Position numbers and translations under genes: made by a program. From the NCBI GenBank assembly GCA_023701005.1, contig JAMPXW010000004.1:1-63952 (forward strand): 63,952 nt of DNA, written 5' to 3'. Shown one piece after another: positions 29,669 to 48,714 of this stretch. The stretch is from Burkholderiales bacterium (lineage in GTDB: Bacteria > Patescibacteriota > Minisyncoccia > Phycocordibacterales > UBA9973). The first letter of the stretch is position 1. Each line of letters opens with the position of its first letter. Below the pieces are notes generated by a model, which saw only the letters and a list, made by a program, of their open reading frames with translations, had not been told where the DNA came from and searched no databases.

Positions 29669-29759
29669 CAGTCGATAGTAGAATTATTTCTACAATTCGC
29701 CTAGGTATAGACTCTCCGTAGAAGACTATATCATATTAAAATAGTTTTGTCAAACTTTG

Positions 29760-29831
29760 TGACCCTACAGAGAATCGAACTCTGATTACCGCCTTGAAAA
29801 GGCGATGTCCTAACCGTTAGACGATAGGGCC
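29760..29831 (-). tRNA. tRNA-Glu(UUC)
   Basis: Acceptor GGCCCTA/TAGGGTC, anticodon loop TTTTCAA, T arm CAGAG-TTCGATT-CTCTG. Confidence 0.9.
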
Positions 29832-43098: not shown

Positions 43099-44067
43099 TT
43101 AATTTAGAATTATATTAAATAAGAATCCTGTAAACATTATTCCTGCACTCACTATGCTTGCGAATATTATAATGAGTTTAGTTTTCATTACTCTTTTTAA
43201 AATCATAAATTCTGGGAAAGAAAGAGCCGTCACAGACATCATGAAAGAAAGAGTGGTGCCCATAGATACTCCTTTTTCTGTCAAAACAGAGACAAGCGGT
43301 ATGACACCTGCTGTATTCGAATATAAAGGTATACCGATAAGTACAGCGAGTGGTACGGCATACCATTTGTCACTTCCTGCATATTGAGCTAGAAAATCAG
43401 TCGGAACATAGCCATGTATAAAAGCACCGATTCCAATACCGATCAAAATATAAATCCAAACTTTTTTTAATATATCTAAAGTATAATCTTTGGCATAAAT
43501 TATTCTTTCTTTTCTTGTCATTGTTGGTAATTCAATATTTCCATTTATAGTATTTTGATATACAAATGGTTCGACTAAATTTTCTATTTTCATTTTACCG
43601 ATAATTATTCCTGAAAGAATAGAAATGATGAGCCCGCTTATTATATACAAGAGAGCTATCTTCCAGCCGAAAAGTCCCAAGAGTAGTATGAGGGCTACTT
43701 CGTTTATCATGGGTGACGCTATCAAGAAAGAAAAAGTTGTCCCTAAAGGGACTCCAGCTTGAACAAATCCTAAAAATAAAGGTATGGCAGAACAAGAACA
43801 AAAAGGTGTGATTATTCCAAAGAGGGAAGCTAAAACGTTTCCAGTATATTTATTTTTATGAGAAAGAATATTTCTAATTTTTTCTGGTGGTAAGTATGAG
43901 CGTATTATAGAAACGATGAAGATTATTACACTGAGTAAAATTAATATTTTAAAGGTGTCGTATATAAAAAAGTTAATTGCATTACCGAATGTTGATTTAG
44001 GAATAATATTTAAAATATTATAAGTAATATAATCAGCAAATAATTGTAAAGGATAAAAAATATTCAT
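43099..44067 (-). CDS. Permease of the DUF318/ArsP-like family
   Basis: Polytopic protein with the CSCSAIP motif. Immediately downstream of a thioredoxin-like partner gene. Confidence 0.75.
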   Translation of the reverse strand: MNIFYPLQLFADYITYNILNIIPKSTFGNAINFFIYDTFKILILLSVIIFIVSIIRSYLPPEKIRNILSHKNKYTGNVLASLFGIITPFCSCSAIPLFLGFVQAGVPLGTTFSFLIASPMINEVALILLLGLFGWKIALLYIISGLIISILSGIIIGKMKIENLVEPFVYQNTINGNIELPTMTRKERIIYAKDYTLDILKKVWIYILIGIGIGAFIHGYVPTDFLAQYAGSDKWYAVPLAVLIGIPLYSNTAGVIPLVSVLTEKGVSMGTTLSFMMSVTALSFPEFMILKRVMKTKLIIIFASIVSAGIMFTGFLFNIILN

Positions 44068-44307
44068 TTAAGAATTATCTTTAATTATATTTTTAATTTT
44101 TTCTATATCAGAGGTTGAGCCTATCAAAACTGGTTTGCCATTGATAGCCAACACAGGGCTCTGCATCAATCCCATAGCAACTATCTTTTGAATGTCTGTT
44201 ATATATTCTACTTTTATATTTAGATTTAATTCACTGACAGCTTTTTCTGTCAGTTCAAATAAATTTTTACAAGTTTTGCACCCCGAACCAAGCACTTGAA
44301 TATTCAT
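44068..44307 (-). CDS. Thioredoxin-family small protein (redox-active disulfide protein 2-like)
   Basis: Start taken at MNIQVLGSGCKTCK, which contains a CxxC motif. 79 aa. The upstream part of the track ORF lies in repeat A. Confidence 0.75.
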   Translation of the reverse strand: MNIQVLGSGCKTCKNLFELTEKAVSELNLNIKVEYITDIQKIVAMGLMQSPVLAINGKPVLIGSTSDIEKIKNIIKDNS

Positions 44308-44352
44308 TTTTAGAGTATAACAGATTAAAAAATAAATTATAATAGATATAGT

Positions 44353-44420
44353 GTGTGCTATGCACGCAATATTTATGTGGTCACAAATCACTAAGTATGG
44401 TTTTTCGCTATGCTCAAATT
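44353..44420. repeat. Direct repeat A (68 bp)
   Basis: 65/68 identical to 48161-48228. Confidence 0.95.
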
Positions 44421-44466
44421 TTACATAATAAAAAAGCAAGAACAACTTTTGCTGTTTTATTGATTT

Positions 44467-44495
44467 TTGACATTATTTATAGTCTGATGTAATAT
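44467..44495 (+). promoter_or_regulatory. Consensus-like promoter TTGACA-17-TAATAT for orf71
   Basis: -35 at 44467-44472, -10 at 44490-44495. An AAGAGG RBS precedes the ATG at 44527. Confidence 0.6.
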
Positions 44496-44526
44496 CCCAA
44501 TTAGATAGAAATAAAAAGAGGTACAT

Positions 44527-44742
44527 ATGATTTTAAGTGATCAACGACTTCAAGAGTTGAAAAGCATAATAGGTATGGAAGCTAACTGTTTAGTTGGTTA
44601 TATACCTACTCCAGAGGCATTAAAAGAATATTTCAACTGGATTTCAAAAAATCACAAAATTCCTCTTGAAGAAATTCAAGAGTTTGTGAGAGTTAAATAC
44701 GAAGAATCTTTTACAAAGATTCTTCGTAATCTTAGTAATTAG
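44527..44742 (+). CDS. Hypothetical 71-aa protein (orf71) between repeats A and B
   Basis: It has its own promoter, RBS and a perfect terminator. I recognise no motif. Confidence 0.6.
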   Translation: MILSDQRLQELKSIIGMEANCLVGYIPTPEALKEYFNWISKNHKIPLEEIQEFVRVKYEESFTKILRNLSN

Positions 44743-44745
44743 ATA

Positions 44746-44777
44746 AAAAAGGATTCTTTCTTTAAAGAATCCTTTTT
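44746..44777 (+). terminator. Intrinsic terminator of orf71
   Basis: Perfect 14-bp stem AAAAAGGATTCTTT/AAAGAATCCTTTTT with a 4-nt loop. Confidence 0.85.
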
Positions 44778-44797
44778 AAAATAATGTGGTTTACGAT

Positions 44798-44870
44798 AAT
44801 TATGCCTGTGGCTTCACAAAAGTAAAAAGGGCTGGAGCAGTCCAGTCCTTTTTAAGCTTTTGTGACCCTA
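44798..44870. repeat. Direct repeat B (73 bp), ending in an 8-nt copy of the tRNA-Glu 3' end
   Basis: 70/73 identical to 48276-48348. It contains a hairpin CTGGA-gcag-TCCAG plus a T-run on the minus strand. Confidence 0.95.
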
Positions 44871-44913
44871 ATTGTACGAGATTGGAACCACATTTCCAAT
44901 CAAATAAAGGTTT

Positions 44914-45960
44914 CTATGTCTCTGAGCTAGGTTTTTTGTGGTGTTTAATTGATTCTTCTTCTATAAAAAACAAATTCCTGTGCGGTCTCGAACAGGCTAC
45001 ATAGAGTTTATTTTTTGTACCAGAAACTAACTTGCTAAGTTTTTTATCTTTGAAATGTTTCATTGTAGTTTTATTAAGTACTACACAAACATCCTCAAAT
45101 TTATTTTCTCCCTTAGAATCTCCCCAATTTCTTGAGAGGCATTTATATTTACTACTTTCTCTATAAAATAATTTGACAACATTATTGTTACTAAAAATTT
45201 CCTCAATTATTTTTGGATCAGAAATAAATTCAACAGTAGACATATTGTTTTTGTGTGAGTATATTTCTATCTTAAGATTTTCAGTAATAAAATTGCAGAT
45301 TGTAGGAGTACATCTCCAGCTTTTATTTAAATGTTCCGTGTCTGGTTTTATACCAAGTTGTTCGAAGTTTTTAATATATTCTTTATAGTCATTATGTAAA
45401 TCATTATTTGTCGTACCATCTCTACTAGTATCGAAGGTGTGTTGGTAGAAATCACCAACCAGTTTTATTTCAAGCTTTGCCCTTACAAGACTTTTTAGTA
45501 AATCGAAGTCATGTCCAGCAAAATCTTGAATTTCATCAATATATAAACAGTCATAGTATTTTTCTAATCTTTCGTTTATGTCATCCAATACATTTAATTC
45601 TTGTAATAGTTTGGCAATTCTATTGTGATACAATCTTCTTCCTTCTGTTAGATAAAAAGAAAGATCACTCCTCTTTTTTTTGAGAGTATATTCGGGTGGA
45701 AAATCCCAAAATATACCTTTGACTTTTAACTTATATGATAAAAACGGTTTAAAACAAAAGCCATATAAAAATGGAAAATATGAGTATAATTGTATATTAT
45801 CTGGGAAATATCCAAATTTTTCTATAATACCATCTCTTAAGTTTTTAGTATTACTTTTAGTGTAAGTAATTAGCAAAAATCTCTTTTCTAAATTTAAATT
45901 ATCTATTATTAGGCTAGTCTTACCAGAACCAGCAACCGCTAAGATTATTTTTTTATCCAT
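44914..45960 (-). CDS. Compact UvrD-like SF1 helicase (GajB-like)
   Basis: Motif I AVAGSGKTS, motif II YIDEIQDF, motif III VGDFYQ, motif IV SWRC, motif VI LYVACSRPHRNL. 348 aa. Overlaps the upstream gene by 16 nt. Confidence 0.8.
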   Translation of the reverse strand: MDKKIILAVAGSGKTSLIIDNLNLEKRFLLITYTKSNTKNLRDGIIEKFGYFPDNIQLYSYFPFLYGFCFKPFLSYKLKVKGIFWDFPPEYTLKKKRSDLSFYLTEGRRLYHNRIAKLLQELNVLDDINERLEKYYDCLYIDEIQDFAGHDFDLLKSLVRAKLEIKLVGDFYQHTFDTSRDGTTNNDLHNDYKEYIKNFEQLGIKPDTEHLNKSWRCTPTICNFITENLKIEIYSHKNNMSTVEFISDPKIIEEIFSNNNVVKLFYRESSKYKCLSRNWGDSKGENKFEDVCVVLNKTTMKHFKDKKLSKLVSGTKNKLYVACSRPHRNLFFIEEESIKHHKKPSSET

Positions 45961-47519
45961 TGAATTGCGTCCACAATATATTGTGGGGGTTTTATTTCAG
46001 TTGATTTTTTTTCAAGCAACTCGAAAGCACAATTTGTTTTATTGGAAAGCATATAATCTTGTACTGTCAGGGTTCTTCTGCCTGCTTTAAATAATTCGTC
46101 GCAAATTTTTGAATTATTTTGGTACATTGAAATTTCAAAAGTTGGTATTTTATCATCGGTTTCAGAAAATATTCCCATATTTGAGTCTTTATAGCTCGAA
46201 TACCTATCAACACAATTTTCTTTATAGTTTCCGTCGTTGTCTGTTACCACAGCTGTTTTTATTTTTAATTCTTTTGCAATATTAAAATAATGCTTGAAGC
46301 TTGTACCTCCCACTGAAATCACATGTATGTCAGAATTTTCAAGCTTATTGGAGGTTACGTTTGTGTAAAAAGATTCCATTAACATAAACTCGGAATCACC
46401 TTCTACGAGAATCACTTTTTTGGAAAATATAAATTCAAGAACATTATTGTCAGGTGCTTTCATAAAAAATTTTGCCGTATCTTTTGGTAGTTGATCAAGT
46501 AGGATGGGAAGGGTACTATTACTATTCAGCAAAATTGATTTTCTTAGATCAAGTCTTGAGCTGATTAAATTGCTATGCGTGGTAATAAATAATTGTTTAT
46601 TTTCTGATTTGTTTATTGTATCAATTAATTTTTTCATATTGATATGACTTAGGTGATTTTCAGGTTCTTCAATTAGAATAACGTCAAGTTCTTTTTGATT
46701 TTTTTGAAGTGCAAACTCTGTTTTTATAAAACATTGTCTTCCTTTCCCTCGATTTACCAAATCGATGTCTCCTTCTTTTATTGTTAGATCAGTTTCCAAA
46801 TTTGCCCTTGAGTTGTTTCTAATAGAGAAAGAATATTCATCAGAACTTACTCTTGAATTAAGGTCACCCAATACACTATCTTTAAAATTCTCCTTGTGTT
46901 TCCTGTATTCATTTTGATGCCTATTTTTTTCTGAGTCGTTAATAATAGTATTATTATAAAGAGTTTTGATGTAAGATTTCGTTGCATATTCATTATCAAT
47001 TTCTGTGTTGTCTAAAAAAAGGTGTCTCATGTATTTTCTATAACTAGTGTAACTACTACCCTCGAAAGTTTTGAATGTTATTGAGTAAAACTCAAACGGG
47101 AAGTTGCTTTCTTTTTGTTGTAGAATATCTTTGATTTCTTTACTCAGATCATCCCTAGGTTCACATCTAAGCGCTAATCCGTGTGTTTTAACCTCATCTG
47201 AATTATTTTTGCCATCTAGATCTTTATTTGTTTGGTCATTGAAATATAATTCAATATAAAGAATTGGAAGGTCTTCATATTTTTTATTTGAAGCTAAAAA
47301 ATTTTGTATTACTTCACTATTAAACATATTGTCCAAACCACAGCTTTCTACTTTACTTCTACTTCCACTTAATACAAGATCTATAGCAGACAAAATTGTA
47401 CTTTTTCCTGCTTCGTTATCTCCAATTAATAGGTTAATTGAATCATTAAACTTAACCTCGAATTCTTTGAATCGTTTAAAATTCTTTATTTTAATTTTCT
47501 CAATTATCTTCCTAGTCAT
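45945..47519 (-). CDS. OLD-family ABC-type ATPase with C-terminal TOPRIM nuclease domain (GajA-like, class 2 OLD)
   Basis: Walker A GDNEAGKST, signature-like NRGKGRQ, Walker B ILIEEPENHLS, TOPRIM ILVEGDSE ... AVVTDNDG. Confidence 0.8.
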   Translation of the reverse strand: MTRKIIEKIKIKNFKRFKEFEVKFNDSINLLIGDNEAGKSTILSAIDLVLSGSRSKVESCGLDNMFNSEVIQNFLASNKKYEDLPILYIELYFNDQTNKDLDGKNNSDEVKTHGLALRCEPRDDLSKEIKDILQQKESNFPFEFYSITFKTFEGSSYTSYRKYMRHLFLDNTEIDNEYATKSYIKTLYNNTIINDSEKNRHQNEYRKHKENFKDSVLGDLNSRVSSDEYSFSIRNNSRANLETDLTIKEGDIDLVNRGKGRQCFIKTEFALQKNQKELDVILIEEPENHLSHINMKKLIDTINKSENKQLFITTHSNLISSRLDLRKSILLNSNSTLPILLDQLPKDTAKFFMKAPDNNVLEFIFSKKVILVEGDSEFMLMESFYTNVTSNKLENSDIHVISVGGTSFKHYFNIAKELKIKTAVVTDNDGNYKENCVDRYSSYKDSNMGIFSETDDKIPTFEISMYQNNSKICDELFKAGRRTLTVQDYMLSNKTNCAFELLEKKSTEIKPPQYIVDAIQWIKK

Positions 47520-47633
47520 AAGAATAATATAGCTCTTTTGGTTCCAAATTACTAATGGTATTGACGCTATGAAATAGTTTAATGTCTAACCTATCTTTTG
47601 AATTGACTTTTGTCAAAAAAAAGGAGAAAGAGT

Positions 47634-48137
47634 TTAAATTTTTATAATCCCTAAAAGGATTTTGACTATCTGTTTAATTTCATGATAGTACCTATTTATT
47701 TTTATATTTAAAGGATGTGTATTTTGAGTGCCAATCACTTTAATATTATAAACTCTCTCAAAAATTTTTTTAGAAAGAAGTCTGACTCGCAAAACATGAA
47801 AATCGGAAGTTACCAAAATAATTTTTTGGATTTCCAGTGTATCAATTAACTTTTTTGAAAACTTAAGGTCTTCTATTGTATTTTTACTTTCAATTATTTG
47901 TAGAATTTCTGATTCAGGTATTCTTTCTGATAATAAATATCGTTTTATATAAAAAGAATGTGGTTTGTTCGTTGTATTAAAATGAGCACCATATCCTCCG
48001 GTTGGAAGTAATTTATAGTTTTTATATTTATTAAATATCTCAATAGCTTTTTCAATTCTCTTTTTTGCGTTAGTAGTCAAATTTCCATTGTCGTCATTTC
48101 TTGATCCAAGAATTATTATTACTCCTTCAGTTTTCAT
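47634..48137 (-). CDS. DUF218 (YdcF/SanA/ElyC-like) protein
   Basis: Start taken at MKTEGVIIILGS. ..LLPTGG.. and ..ILVTSDFHVLR.. motifs. An extended -10 TGCTATAAT (48144-48152) lies 6 nt from the ATG. Confidence 0.7.
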   Translation of the reverse strand: MKTEGVIIILGSRNDDNGNLTTNAKKRIEKAIEIFNKYKNYKLLPTGGYGAHFNTTNKPHSFYIKRYLLSERIPESEILQIIESKNTIEDLKFSKKLIDTLEIQKIILVTSDFHVLRVRLLSKKIFERVYNIKVIGTQNTHPLNIKINRYYHEIKQIVKILLGIIKI

Positions 48138-48160
48138 AAGTAAATTATAGCAGGTATAAG

Positions 48161-48228
48161 GTGTGCTACGCACGCAATATTTATGTGGTCACAAATCACT
48201 AAGTATGATTTTTCGTTATGCTCAAATT
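48161..48228. repeat. Direct repeat A' (68 bp)
   Basis: 65/68 identical to 44353-44420. Confidence 0.95.
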
Positions 48229-48275
48229 CTACGTAGGTGTTTGCCGACCCCGGCTCGGCTATTTTAGTACTCAAA

Positions 48276-48348
48276 AATTATGCCTGTGCCTTCACAAAAG
48301 CAAAAAGGGCTGGAGCAGTCCAGTCCATTTTAAGCTTTTGTGACCCTA
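48276..48348. repeat. Direct repeat B' (73 bp), overlapping the 3' end of tRNA-Glu(CUC)
   Basis: 70/73 identical to 44798-44870. Confidence 0.95.
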
Positions 48349-48412
48349 CAGAGAATCGAACTCTGATTTTATCCTTGAGAAGGATACGTCCTAACCGTTA
48401 GACGATAGGGCC
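48341..48412 (-). tRNA. tRNA-Glu(CUC)
   Basis: Same acceptor, D and T arms as tRNA-Glu(UUC). Anticodon arm TATCC-TTCTCAA-GGATA. Confidence 0.9.
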
Positions 48413-48714
48413 ATTTAAAAAATATAGCATATTTTTTGATAAATAAAAAAATAGGCGCACTTTGTTGGTGCGCCTCATAGTATTAATATACATACTATGC
48501 AATAAAAGTTTTTGACATAAAACTTATTCTTTGGTTAGAAGAAAATAAAGTGCTTTGTTTTTTCTTTTTATTCTCAAGCAGATTAATTGTAATTCTGCAT
48601 TAAATTGTTGAATCGCGTCATTAAAACGTTTTTCAGTAAAAATTCTTTGACTCTTTATCATTAAATTATGCTCCATTTCTTGTGAAAGAATTTTGTTGAA
48701 ATTAGTTTTGCTAA

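What the first reader, a model, noticed from the sequence alone, without database searches (positions are those of the whole stretch)
44353..48348. Two pairs of ~70-bp direct repeats give the defence cassette att-like ends at the 3' end of tRNA-Glu(CUC)
Seen in sequence:
- A 44353-44420 matches A' 48161-48228 (65/68). B 44798-44870 matches B' 48276-48348 (70/73). All four are in direct orientation.
- B' includes the last 8 nt of tRNA-Glu(CUC) (TAGGGTCA in tRNA sense). B ends with the same 8 nt, and identity stops exactly there.
- B and B' carry a hairpin plus T-run on the minus strand. This acts as the terminator for the tRNA (B') and for the helicase operon (B).
- A' and B' are 47 bp apart. 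A and B are 377 bp apart and enclose an autonomous 71-aa gene.
- Order: tRNA, B', A', DUF218, OLD, helicase, B, orf71, A, thioredoxin-like gene.

Inference: this topology is what a Campbell-type single crossover would produce if a circle carrying a B-A junction integrated into chromosomal B at the tRNA 3' end (period about 3.5 kb). I recognise no integrase in the window. The islet may therefore be decayed, mobilised in trans, or acquired by homology-facilitated recombination.
Basis: partly seen in the sequence, partly recalled or inferred. Interest (0 to 1): 0.65.

Follow-up and report, generated by a model that had tools for sequence, protein, structure and literature searches.

The report
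Integrase-less gene cassettes stacked behind tRNA-Glu
The repeats are two copies, one broken, of a conserved folded RNA-like element that follows tRNA-Glu genes in Patescibacteria.

Summary
A/A' match 65/68, B/B' match 70/73, both pairs are direct, each has two copies in the window, and none is expected by chance.

A and B are not two separate att repeats. B'+47 bp+A' (48161-48348, minus strand) is one about 190-nt structured element that starts at the last 9 nt of tRNA-Glu(CUC). It recurs after tRNA-Glu in other Patescibacteria and covaries strongly: 6 sequences give 95% of cells paired and 37 of 61 pairs compensatory. It matches no Rfam family. The second copy (B...A) is the same element with its middle replaced by 377 bp that carry an orphan ORF.

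The true distal junction was missed. A conserved about 50-nt element ('RE', 44871-44913) follows gajB and abuts a second TAGGGTCAC. RE has about 27 distinct copies in 24 loci, always in the order tRNA-Glu, module, cargo, RE, and often in tandem arrays with varied cargo.

Syntenic relatives lack DUF218-Gabija. One other genome has tRNA-Glu(CUC), module and Gabija without DUF218.

No recombinase was found in the window or in any islet.

Best reading (about 0.5): cassettes are inserted at the tRNA-Glu 3' core by a recombinase acting in trans. There is no read-level evidence of excision.

The parts
48340..48412 (-). tRNA-Glu(CUC). Its last 9 nt (48340-48348, TAGGGTCAC) are core copy 1.
   Evidence: ARAGORN; Rfam tRNA at 62 bits; sequence.
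48161..48348 (-). Module copy 1, intact. About 190-nt structured tRNA-trailer element made of B' (48276-48348), the 47-bp spacer (48229-48275) and A' (48161-48228). It has 8 helices, and helix 1 pairs the last nucleotides of the tRNA with downstream TTTTGTGA.
   Evidence: Covariance model R1 hit at 190.9 bits; alignments A2 and A3 with covariation; no Rfam match.
48144..48152 (-). Extended -10-like TGCTATAAT, 6 nt before the DUF218 ATG (48137). This is a leaderless-type arrangement, also seen after the module in L088 and L085.
   Evidence: Sequence. The promoter role is inferred.
47634..48137 (-). DUF218 (YdcF/SanA-like) gene, the first cargo gene. It is absent from the otherwise equivalent Gabija locus L101. 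A 62%-identical homologue sits 25 nt after tRNA-Glu(UUC) in L141.
   Evidence: Pfam PF02698, 7e-20.
45945..47519 (-). gajA (OLD-family ATPase plus TOPRIM nuclease). About 80 nt of upstream leader (47520-47600) is 86% identical to L101.
   Evidence: PADLOC GajA PDLC00102, 5.8e-117, full length; Pfam.
44914..45960 (-). gajB (short UvrD-like helicase). It overlaps the end of gajA by 16 nt.
   Evidence: PADLOC GajB PDLC00148, 9.8e-56, profile positions 1-355 of 369.
44871..44913 (-). RE, a conserved cassette-end element that starts right after the gajB stop codon. Minus strand: AAACCTTTATTTGATTGGAAATGTGGTTCCAATCTCGTACAAT. It contains a sigma70-like TTGGAA-17-TACAAT.
   Evidence: 87% identical to the sequence after the permease in L015; about 27 distinct copies elsewhere; promoter scan.
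44862..44870 (-). Core copy 2 (TAGGGTCAC), a direct repeat of the tRNA 3' end that abuts RE.
44798..44870 (-). Module copy 2, 5' fragment (repeat B): core, helices 1-3 and GAAGCCACAGGCATAATT.
   Evidence: covariance model hit 44718-44870 at 59.7 bits.
44421..44797 (.). 377-bp segment that replaces module columns of about 84-123, breaking helices 4-6. It holds orf71 (+, 44527-44742), a TTGACA-17-TAATAT site (44467-44495, +) and a hairpin at 44738-44785.
   Evidence: orf71 has no homologue and no Pfam or PADLOC hit.
44353..44420 (-). Module copy 2, 3' fragment (repeat A; weaker similarity over 44325-44427): helix 6 3' strand TTGTGACC, the CACATAAATA tail and helix 8.
   Evidence: covariance model hit 44353-44475 at 26.9 bits.
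43099..44307 (-). Thioredoxin_3 gene (44068-44307) and ArsP-type permease (43099-44067), the older distal unit. The same pair is followed by RE in L015, L020/L091 and, as a degenerate copy, L038. No RE follows it here.
   Evidence: Pfam.
29759..29831 (-). tRNA-Glu(UUC) with the same 3' core (TAGGGTCACAAAG) but no module or RE downstream. It is an unoccupied comparison site in the same genome.
   Evidence: The covariance model and RE profile find nothing there.

Best explanation
The locus is a two-unit stack of small, integrase-less gene cassettes anchored at the 3' end of tRNA-Glu(CUC). It belongs to a recurrent architecture in Patescibacteria (Paceibacteria/Nomurabacteria-like genomes).

Unit structure. 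Each full unit reads: core TAGGGTCAC; an about 190-nt structured 'module'; a TGnTATAAT-N6-ATG start; cargo; and an about 50-nt RE.
- Unit 1 is module (B'+47 bp+A'), DUF218, gajA, gajB, RE.
- Unit 2 is core, a broken module (B, 377 bp with orf71, A), Trx_3, permease.

Inferred mechanism. A circular or transferred cassette carries the junction RE|core|module. It recombines at the core with the tRNA-Glu 3' end, or with an existing RE|core. This pushes the resident unit outward and leaves the tRNA intact. The recombinase is not in the window or in any islet, so it must act in trans.

The module. It folds on the tRNA-sense strand and is most likely transcribed with the tRNA. Where it follows RE, it is most likely transcribed from the RE promoter. 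Its role is unknown; it might be a recombination cofactor or guide, or an expression or processing element.

Shown: the repeats, the module's conserved structure, RE's recurrence, polarity and arrays, the variable cargo, the absence of recombinase genes, and the absence of the block in syntenic relatives.

Inferred: site-specific recombination at the core, the trans-acting enzyme, and transcription of the module.
For: 1. Repeats are real and non-random.

2. RE plus core recurs. The metagenome pattern scan found 18 true copies. An nhmmer profile found 36 hits in 24 loci, about 27 of them distinct. Similarity always ends right after ...GTCAC(AAA), and flanking genes differ.

3. Polarity is constant: tRNA-Glu, module, cargo, RE, all on one strand, in the window, L015, L081, L084/L094, L087, L088, L090 and L098.

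4. Tandem RE arrays with 0.6-2 kb spacing occur in L020/L091, L081, L082, L085/L097, L087, L090, L092, L095 and L098. L081 carries two complete units with the same RE|core|module junction as window 44918-44798.

5. Cargo is diverse and accessory: Gabija, an MvaI/BcnI restriction-modification pair, GNAT, a kinase, HD, Ppnp, aldose epimerase, Trx-permease and IS elements.

6. Syntenic relatives (L005, L015, L017, L067, L081, L087) have other content at this site.

7. L101 has tRNA-Glu(CUC), module and Gabija (GajA 89% and GajB 93% aa identity) without DUF218. A DUF218 homologue sits directly after tRNA-Glu(UUC) in L141.

8. RE is 93-96% identical between genomes whose adjacent RmuC/tRNA DNA is 79% identical.

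9. Module structure. With 6 sequences, 95.4% of cells are paired and 37 of 61 pairs are compensatory; 0 of 500 shuffles reach this, and slid controls give 37-45%. With 20 sequences, 92.3% are paired and 58 of 60 pairs are compensatory. A conserved G-U pair makes the fold strand-specific.

10. No recombinase family hit in 40 window ORFs or 20 islet ORFs, apart from IS200 and IS481 transposases carried as cargo.
Against: - No recombinase was identified, so the catalytic step is pure inference.
- No empty-site or circle junction appears in the only sample that holds this organism. Only assembled contigs were available. Depth is nearly flat (island 35.5 vs flanks 37.5-38.9).
- The two module copies in the window are 96% alike, far closer than to any foreign module. 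That fits a within-lineage duplication or gene conversion as well as an incoming element.
- The RE core does not always match the local tRNA. In L084 the tRNA ends TAGAGTCAC and the RE core is TAGGGTCAC.
- RE also looks like an ordinary strong promoter, and about 10 of 16 copies have a co-directional gene or tRNA downstream.
- Unit 2 in the window has no RE after the permease.
- Module relatives occur after other tRNAs without known RE partners, so the module may be a tRNA-trailer RNA unrelated to mobility.
- The A3 alignment is fitted to the model, which inflates pairing counts.
Confidence: 0.5

Rival explanations
1. Homology-facilitated exchange, with no site-specific enzyme. The tRNA-Glu gene, the module and RE are conserved 'portable homology' blocks. 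DNA taken up from related Patescibacteria is inserted or swapped by RecA-type recombination between these blocks. The A/B duplication comes from a single (Campbell-type) homologous crossover or from unequal exchange, followed by gene conversion.
For: - The window's two module copies are 96% identical while foreign modules are much more diverged.
- RE (55 nt, 85-96% identical between genomes) and the tRNA (85-100%) are long enough for short-homology recombination.
- No recombinase was found.
- RE core and tRNA core do not always match.
Against: - It does not explain why RE ends in the same 9-12 nt as the tRNA-Glu 3' end in nearly all copies.
- It does not explain why similarity stops at exactly that nucleotide in more than 20 different contexts.
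- It does not explain why the RE|core|module register is identical in the window and L081.
- First acquisitions into RE-less sites cannot be explained this way.
Confidence: 0.2
2. Decayed remnants of ordinary integrase-bearing tRNA-Glu islands, of the tycheposon or genomic-island type. Full elements integrated repeatedly, then lost their integrase and replication modules. What remains is cargo plus attR (RE, meaning P-arm plus partial tRNA) stacked behind the tRNA.
For: - Stacking, with new insertions pushing older ones outward, and scattered partial tRNAs are described for tycheposon islands (10.1101/2020.12.28.424599, read).
- Pseudo-tRNA 3' fragments occur in L081, L098, L100 and L141.
- RE shows weak colinear similarity to the tRNA-Glu T-arm region.
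Against: - No intact or fragmentary tyrosine or serine recombinase was found in any of about 24 RE loci or in the window.
- Units are uniformly small (0.6-3.5 kb) and cleanly bounded.
- RE is highly conserved rather than decaying.
- RE was not found in 2.9 million viral or satellite contigs.
Confidence: 0.12
3. No mobility. RE is a conserved promoter and the module is a tRNA-trailer non-coding RNA. Both are vertically inherited chromosomal features. The window's arrangement arose from a local tandem duplication of the tRNA-trailer region followed by ordinary gene gain and loss.
For: - RE has near-consensus -35 and -10 hexamers at 17-nt spacing and often precedes a co-directional gene or tRNA, for example tRNA-Cys in L098.
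- Module relatives follow other tRNAs.
- The Gabija position is shared by the window and L101.
Against: - RE is multi-copy per locus with unrelated cargo between copies.
- RE sits at both tRNA-Glu(CUC) and tRNA-Glu(UUC) loci and in different flanking contexts.
- 6 of 16 copies face a convergent gene.
- The closest syntenic relatives (L005, L017, L067) lack both RE and module.
- The spacer and upstream 20 nt of RE are conserved beyond what a promoter needs, and a variant without the -10 keeps the core (L038).
Confidence: 0.08

Closest known systems
tRNA-anchored genomic islands built by tycheposons (Prochlorococcus; Hackl et al., bioRxiv 10.1101/2020.12.28.424599)
   Same: Insertion occurs at the 3' end of specific tRNA genes. 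Units are flanked by a full tRNA and a partial-tRNA repeat. Successive insertions push older ones outward. Cargo is adaptive or defensive. The hosts have streamlined genomes and few classical mobile elements.
   Different: Tycheposons carry their own tyrosine or serine recombinase and often replication genes, and are several kb to more than 10 kb. Here no unit carries a recombinase. Units are 0.6-3.5 kb. The distal site is a conserved about 50-nt promoter-like element. A structured about 190-nt element sits at the proximal end.
Integron gene-cassette arrays (attI/attC, IntI)
   Same: Arrays of small, mostly single-gene, recombinase-less cassettes, each ending in a conserved about 55-60-nt site and anchored at one primary site. 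Cargo is accessory.
   Different: No intI is adjacent. RE does not fold as an attC-like hairpin. RE carries its own promoter. The anchor is a tRNA 3' end. Cassettes can lie in either orientation.
Xer-dependent pdif modules / IMEX elements
   Same: Recombinase-less modules bounded by short conserved sites and moved by a housekeeping recombinase acting in trans.
   Different: No dif-like 11-6-11 inverted arms are recognisable in RE|core. Sites here are direct, not alternating. This comparison is from my own knowledge of pdif and was not tested beyond inspection.
IS110/IS1111 bridge (seek) RNA-guided recombination
   Same: A structured about 150-250-nt non-coding RNA is encoded at the element end. 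An outward promoter at the other end would read into it across the circle junction, as with RE reading through the core into the module. There is a short shared core between donor and target. The module holds two segments complementary to the core (TTTTGTGA, TTGTGACC).
   Different: No DEDD/IS110 recombinase was found. The core-complementary segments are paired internally, and TTGTGACC is also kept in module relatives that follow other tRNAs, so it does not co-vary with the tRNA. This is a resemblance only.
Gabija anti-phage system (GajA/GajB)
   Same: The cargo matches full-length PADLOC GajA and GajB profiles of a compact subtype. The nearest full-length relatives are about 70% identical and, where named, from Bacteroidota.
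   Different: Nothing unusual in the system itself. A DUF218 gene precedes it here, but not in L101.

Membership tests
Gabija defence system | GajA: OLD-family ABC ATPase plus TOPRIM nuclease | tested here: met
   PADLOC PDLC00102, 5.8e-117, residues 5-521 on profile positions 2-531 of 532; Pfam OLD-like_TOPRIM and AAA_15.
Gabija defence system | Adjacent GajB UvrD-like helicase in the same operon | tested here: met
   PADLOC PDLC00148, 9.8e-56, profile positions 1-355 of 369; 16-nt overlap with gajA.
tRNA-targeting integrative island (integrase-mediated, tycheposon-like) | Inserted at the 3' end of a tRNA gene with a direct repeat of the tRNA 3' end at the far boundary | tested here: met
   TAGGGTCAC at 48340-48348 and 44862-44870. 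The same pattern occurs in 8 other loci.
tRNA-targeting integrative island (integrase-mediated, tycheposon-like) | Element-encoded tyrosine or serine recombinase | tested here: not met
   No recombinase Pfam hit in the cassette, in 40 window ORFs or in 20 ORFs of other islets.
tRNA-targeting integrative island (integrase-mediated, tycheposon-like) | Empty site in relatives, or excision junctions | tested here: inconclusive
   Syntenic relatives lack the block, but they are different species. No alternative junction appears in assembled contigs of the single sample. No raw reads were available.
Integron | intI integrase next to the primary site | tested here: not met
   Genes flanking the tRNA are 8xMP, RmuC and DUF218. 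No integrase is present.
Integron | attC sites that fold as imperfect hairpins (conserved structure, variable sequence) | tested here: not met
   RE copies folded as single-stranded DNA give z-scores of -1.2 to +1.0 and no common hairpin. RE is conserved in sequence, not structure.
Integron | Array of recombinase-less cassettes each ending in the recombination site | tested here: met
   Tandem RE copies spaced 0.6-2 kb with one to three genes between them, in 9 loci.
IS110-type bridge-RNA elements | DEDD (RuvC-like) recombinase encoded in the element | tested here: not met
   No PF01548 or PF02371 hit in any scanned ORF.
IS110-type bridge-RNA elements | Guide loops that co-vary with target and donor flanks | tested here: not met
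   TTGTGACC is also kept in module relatives that follow tRNA-Gly and tRNA-Val, and only a variant (TTTGACC) follows tRNA-Arg. Only the helix 1 foot tracks the last 3-4 nt of the tRNA.
Any Rfam 15 RNA family (for the module) | Covariance-model match at or near the gathering score | tested here: not met
   Only tRNA passes. In the E<=10 scan of 47900-48600 nothing plausible covers 48161-48340.
   The window copies fit. Homologous hairpins in L081, L090 and L101 lack the U-run while the stem covaries and the CTGC loop is conserved.

The most novel reading that the evidence does not exclude
Patescibacteria carry a previously undescribed cassette system. Small recombinase-less units are each built from a structured about 190-nt RNA module, cargo, and a promoter-bearing about 50-nt end site. 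They are captured in arrays at tRNA-Glu 3' ends by a trans-acting enzyme. The module RNA is made from the tRNA transcript, or from the RE promoter across the junction, and serves as the specificity or architectural component of the recombination. This would be an RNA-assisted, integron-like capture platform for defence and accessory genes in ultra-small bacteria.
Probability: 0.18. Interest if true: 0.9.

Novelty: new variant of a known kind. Interest (0 to 1): 0.72.

Why it matters
Patescibacteria (the candidate phyla radiation) have tiny genomes. How they gain and shuffle accessory and defence genes is poorly understood.

This locus points to a recurrent and sharply bounded architecture with four features:
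- tRNA-Glu as the anchor;
- a strongly covarying RNA element with no Rfam family;
- a highly conserved about 50-nt end site;
- interchangeable cargo that includes Gabija and a restriction-modification pair.

If the units are mobile, this is an integron-like or tycheposon-like gene-capture route without a linked integrase. It gives a concrete handle (RE plus module) for finding flexible genes and the responsible recombinase in thousands of uncultured genomes.

Independently of mobility, the module is a good candidate for a new structured RNA class tied to tRNA 3' ends.

Tried and rejected
- Rfam, at gathering thresholds and at E<=10: no family matches the module or RE.
- attC-like folding of RE: rejected.
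- Recombinase search by Pfam in 40 window ORFs and 20 islet ORFs: none found. The IS200 TnpA in L083 is an unrelated IS insertion about 28 nt upstream of an RE. The IS481 in L095 is cargo.
- Read-level junctions: only Logan contigs of one run hold the organism, and they show no alternative joint. The single 'joint' listed is cross-matching of the two tRNA-Glu genes.
- Strain variants by exact-protein look-up (Trx, 8xMP, permease): same sample only, or nothing on record.
- Viral contigs: RE pattern gives 0 hits. The Glu-type module pattern gives 0 hits. The loose module pattern gives 37 hits, none confirmed by the covariance model, so they are chance matches.
- orf71 homologues: none.
- RE as a decayed tRNA-Glu 3' half: the alignment is colinear and in register, but shuffling gives p = 0.01 to 0.9 depending on the tRNA. 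This is suggestive only.
- Covariation of the RE core with the local tRNA holds for the window, L015 and L088 but fails in L084/L094, so it is not used as evidence.
- gajB truncated by the insertion: rejected, because it matches a short GajB profile end to end.
- Literature: four searches found no description of this architecture.

Full report
OBSERVATION

The repeats exist as described.
- B (44798-44870) matches B' (48276-48348) at 70/73.
Weaker similarity extends to 103 nt.
- All four are direct. Core stretches of 25 and 37 nt each occur exactly twice in the window, with none expected in shuffles.
- tRNA-Glu(CUC) lies at 48340-48412 on the minus strand. B' includes its last 9 nt, TAGGGTCAC. 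B ends with the same 9 nt and identity stops there.

The minus-strand gene order is confirmed by Pfam and PADLOC: tRNA, B', 47 bp, A', DUF218, gajA, gajB, B, orf71 (opposite strand), A, Thioredoxin_3, ArsP-type permease. OLD plus helicase is a complete compact Gabija pair, with full-length matches to GajA PDLC00102 and GajB PDLC00148. The helicase is not truncated.

SOURCE ORGANISM AND RELATIVES

The sequence occurs in one groundwater metagenome run. The permease search brings in Patescibacteria relatives labelled Nomurabacteria or Paceibacteria.

Four genome loci (L005, L015, L017, L067) and metagenome contigs L081 and L087 share the flanking synteny of the window, with RmuC and an exonuclease on one side and MurF and a PBP on the other. 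In all of them tRNA-Glu(CUC) lies in this interval, but the genes behind it differ:
- L015: Trx-permease directly after the tRNA.
- L005: ArsR-like, rhodanese, Trx, permease.
- L017: an EamA-type gene and others.
- L067: a sigma factor.

None has DUF218-Gabija. So the block is an insertion relative to these relatives, which are different species.

THE MISSED ELEMENT (RE)

The 43 nt between the gajB stop codon and B (44871-44913) read, on the minus strand, AAACCTTTATTTGATTGGAAATGTGGTTCCAATCTCGTACAAT, followed by TAGGGTCAC. This is 87% identical to the sequence right after the permease stop in L015, which ends in TAGAGTCAC, L015's own tRNA-Glu 3' end. Two further copies flank Trx-permease in L020.

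A degenerate pattern scan of the metagenome collection returned 20 loci. Eighteen are clearly the same element, with extra conserved sequence on both sides that the pattern did not require. The consensus is AAACCCTTTATTTGATTGAAAATnTGGTTCCAATTCCGTATAAT|TAGGGTCAC(AAA). A profile built from them finds 36 hits in 24 loci, about 27 of them distinct.

Three properties stand out:
- Similarity always ends just after ...GTCAC(AAA), and neighbouring genes differ on both sides.
- Where enough upstream sequence exists, a tRNA-Glu (CUC or UUC) lies 0.6-3.5 kb upstream on the same strand. This holds for the window, L015, L081, L084/L094, L087, L088, L090 and L098.
- RE copies often form direct tandem arrays 0.6-2 kb apart, with one to three genes between them. 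This is seen in L020/L091, L081, L082, L085/L097, L087, L090, L092, L095 and L098.

Cargo is varied: Gabija, an MvaI/BcnI restriction enzyme with its methylase, GNAT, an AAA_18 kinase, an HD protein, Ppnp, aldose epimerase, Trx-permease, IS200 and IS481 transposases, and proteins with no Pfam family.

Other properties of RE:
- It is 93-96% identical between L081, L087 and L098, whose neighbouring RmuC/tRNA DNA is only 79% identical.
- It contains a near-consensus sigma70-type promoter (TTGATT or TTGAAA, 17 nt, TATAAT) reading toward the core.
- Only about 10 of 16 copies have a co-directional gene or tRNA downstream, and a variant without the -10 hexamer keeps the core (L038).
- It does not fold as a hairpin.
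- It is absent from IMG/VR.
- Its upstream half aligns colinearly with the variable-loop and T-arm region of tRNA-Glu, but this is only weakly significant.

WHAT A AND B ARE

Searching A, B and the 47-bp spacer against the new loci showed that all three travel together. The tRNA-sense stretch B'+47 bp+A' (48348 down to 48161) is one about 190-nt element. It is found immediately after tRNA-Glu in L088, L090, L098 and L101. In L081 and L100 it follows a second TAGGGTCAC core.

Six copies align into eight helices. Of all cells, 95.4% form standard pairs, and 37 of 61 pairs carry compensatory double changes. None of 500 column shuffles reaches any of the five measures, and sliding the partners drops pairing to 37-45%.

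A covariance model built from them (R1) recovers further copies:
- a second complete one in L081 that sits directly after an RE, giving the same RE|core|module junction as window 44918-44798;
- both fragments of the window's second copy;
- weaker relatives placed right after tRNA-Gly(UCC), tRNA-Arg(UCG), tRNA-Ser(UGA) and tRNA-Val(GAC) in other Patescibacteria.

On the 20-sequence model-fitted alignment, 92.3% of cells pair and 58 of 60 pairs show compensatory change. That alignment leans toward the structure by construction.

G-U pairs, including one conserved in most sequences, make the fold specific to the tRNA-sense strand. This argues for an RNA co-transcribed with the tRNA, or for that single DNA strand. 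Helix 1 always pairs the last 3-4 nt of the tRNA plus CAAAA with a downstream TTTTG(N)(N). Its inner stem covaries around a conserved CTGC loop. The U-run that makes it look like a terminator in the window is missing in L081, L090 and L101.

No Rfam 15 family matches. Loose pattern hits in viral contigs were chance.

Directly after the module comes TGnTATAAT-N6-ATG of the first cargo gene, seen in the window for DUF218 and Trx and in L088 and L085. This suggests leaderless transcripts. That reading is an inference.

READING THE WINDOW

Unit 1 is core (48340-48348), intact module (48161-48348), DUF218, gajA, gajB and RE (44871-44913).

Unit 2 is core (44862-44870), the module 5' part (B), a 377-bp replacement, the module 3' part (A), Trx_3 and the permease.

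The 377 bp remove alignment columns of about 84-123, so helices 4-6 cannot form in copy 2. The orf71 they carry has promoter-like and terminator-like signals but no homologue among 5.8 billion proteins. I treat it as an unverified ORF.

L101, from another metagenome, has tRNA-Glu(CUC), a diverged module, about 130 nt of leader, then gajA (89% aa identity) and gajB (93%), with no DUF218. The last about 80 nt before gajA are 86% identical to the window's DUF218-gajA spacer. A 62%-identical DUF218 gene sits 25 nt after tRNA-Glu(UUC) in L141. So both cargo components are independently linked to tRNA-Glu 3' ends elsewhere.

Other full-length GajA relatives are about 70% identical and, where named, from Bacteroidota.

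The window's own tRNA-Glu(UUC) (29759-29831) has the same core but nothing behind it.

MECHANISM

The best-supported reading is stacking of recombinase-less cassettes by recombination at the shared core. An incoming RE|core|module junction recombines with the tRNA-Glu 3' end or with a resident RE|core.

Supporting points:
- sharp, nucleotide-exact boundaries;
- fixed polarity and arrays;
- an identical junction register in two genomes;
- patchy distribution among relatives;
- conservation of RE beyond its flanks.

The enzyme is unknown. Pfam scans of 40 ORFs in the window, including every ORF of at least 170 aa except four long ones (621-2049 aa), and of 20 ORFs in other islets found no tyrosine, serine or DEDD recombinase. 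I give this reading about 0.5.

Points against it:
- There is no read-level evidence of excision. The Logan contigs show uniform depth and no alternative joint.
- The two window modules are 96% alike. This fits gene conversion, a donor within the same lineage, or homologous Campbell-type recombination (rival at 0.2).
- RE could be mainly a promoter.
- The module family also follows other tRNAs with no RE seen next to them in the loci held here.

Decay of integrase-bearing islands (0.12) and purely vertical features with a local duplication (0.08) fit the data less well.

COMPARISON WITH KNOWN SYSTEMS

The architecture works most like tRNA-anchored islands built by tycheposons, with partial-tRNA repeats and stacking of insertions (10.1101/2020.12.28.424599), and like integron cassette arrays. 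It fails defining tests of both. There is no element-encoded or adjacent integrase, and RE is not an attC-like hairpin.

A promoter at one end that reads across the junction into a structured RNA at the other end recalls IS110 bridge-RNA elements. But no such recombinase is present, and the core-complementary segment is also kept in module relatives that follow other tRNAs, so it does not co-vary with the tRNA.

Four literature searches found no description of this arrangement.

VERDICT

The locus is a member of what appears to be an undescribed variant of tRNA-anchored cassette islands. It includes a candidate new structured RNA. Mobility and mechanism remain inferred.

Noticed in passing
L021 4544-4713 and 2691-2861; L018 6414-6586; L028 7428-7534; L094 6607-6724: Weaker relatives of the module (covariance model scores of 20-59 bits) sit immediately after tRNA-Gly(UCC), tRNA-Arg(UCG), tRNA-Ser(UGA) and tRNA-Val(GAC) in other Patescibacteria. 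They share motifs of the type CGGAAG, GAGYCGGGGT and TTGTGACC. The element may be a wider family of tRNA-trailer RNAs.
   Followed up: partly
L038 9157-9414 and 10968-11006: In the Parcubacteria genome RAAC4_OD1_1, the Trx-permease pair is flanked by degenerate RE-like sites. A module variant there has ends that are inverted copies of the core (GTGACCCTA ... TAGGGTCAC).
   Followed up: no
window 29759-29831: tRNA-Glu(UUC) has the same 3' core (TAGGGTCACAAAG) as tRNA-Glu(CUC) but no module, RE or islet behind it. It is an apparently empty site in the same genome.
   Followed up: yes
window 44527-44742: orf71 has no homologue in the 5.8-billion-protein collection and no Pfam or PADLOC hit. It may not be a gene.
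   Followed up: yes
window 48135-48152 and 44305-44325; L088; L085: The first cargo genes start 6 nt after an extended -10-like TGnTATAAT (TGTTATACT for Trx). No Shine-Dalgarno sequence is present, which suggests leaderless mRNAs.
   Followed up: no
L098 4204-5169; L087 4378-5343 (RE-oriented coordinates): A conserved 321-aa protein with no Pfam family (the two loci share 85% nucleotide identity across it). It is preceded by tRNA-Cys in one genome and tRNA-Ala in the other, and is followed by an RE in L098.
   Followed up: partly
L141 about 690-720: A 5' fragment of tRNA-Glu (GGCCCTATCGTCTAACGGTT) is duplicated just upstream of the intact tRNA-Glu(UUC) that precedes the DUF218 homologue.
   Followed up: no
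window 43099-44307 and loci L001-L080: The Thioredoxin_3 plus ArsP-permease pair is 55-85% identical (permease) across MAGs labelled Patescibacteria, Peregrinibacteria, Caldisericota, Deltaproteobacteria and even Methanocellaceae. This indicates a widely exchanged two-gene module.
   Followed up: partly
L015, L005, L067 vs window and L017: The segment carrying tRNA-Glu(CUC) and Trx-permease is inverted relative to the RmuC and MurF flanks in some relatives. The interval is prone to rearrangement.
   Followed up: no
L083 366-797 and L020 2640-2712: IS200/IS605 TnpA, with typical end hairpins, is inserted about 28 nt upstream of an RE. The sequence is otherwise 100% identical to L085.
   Followed up: yes
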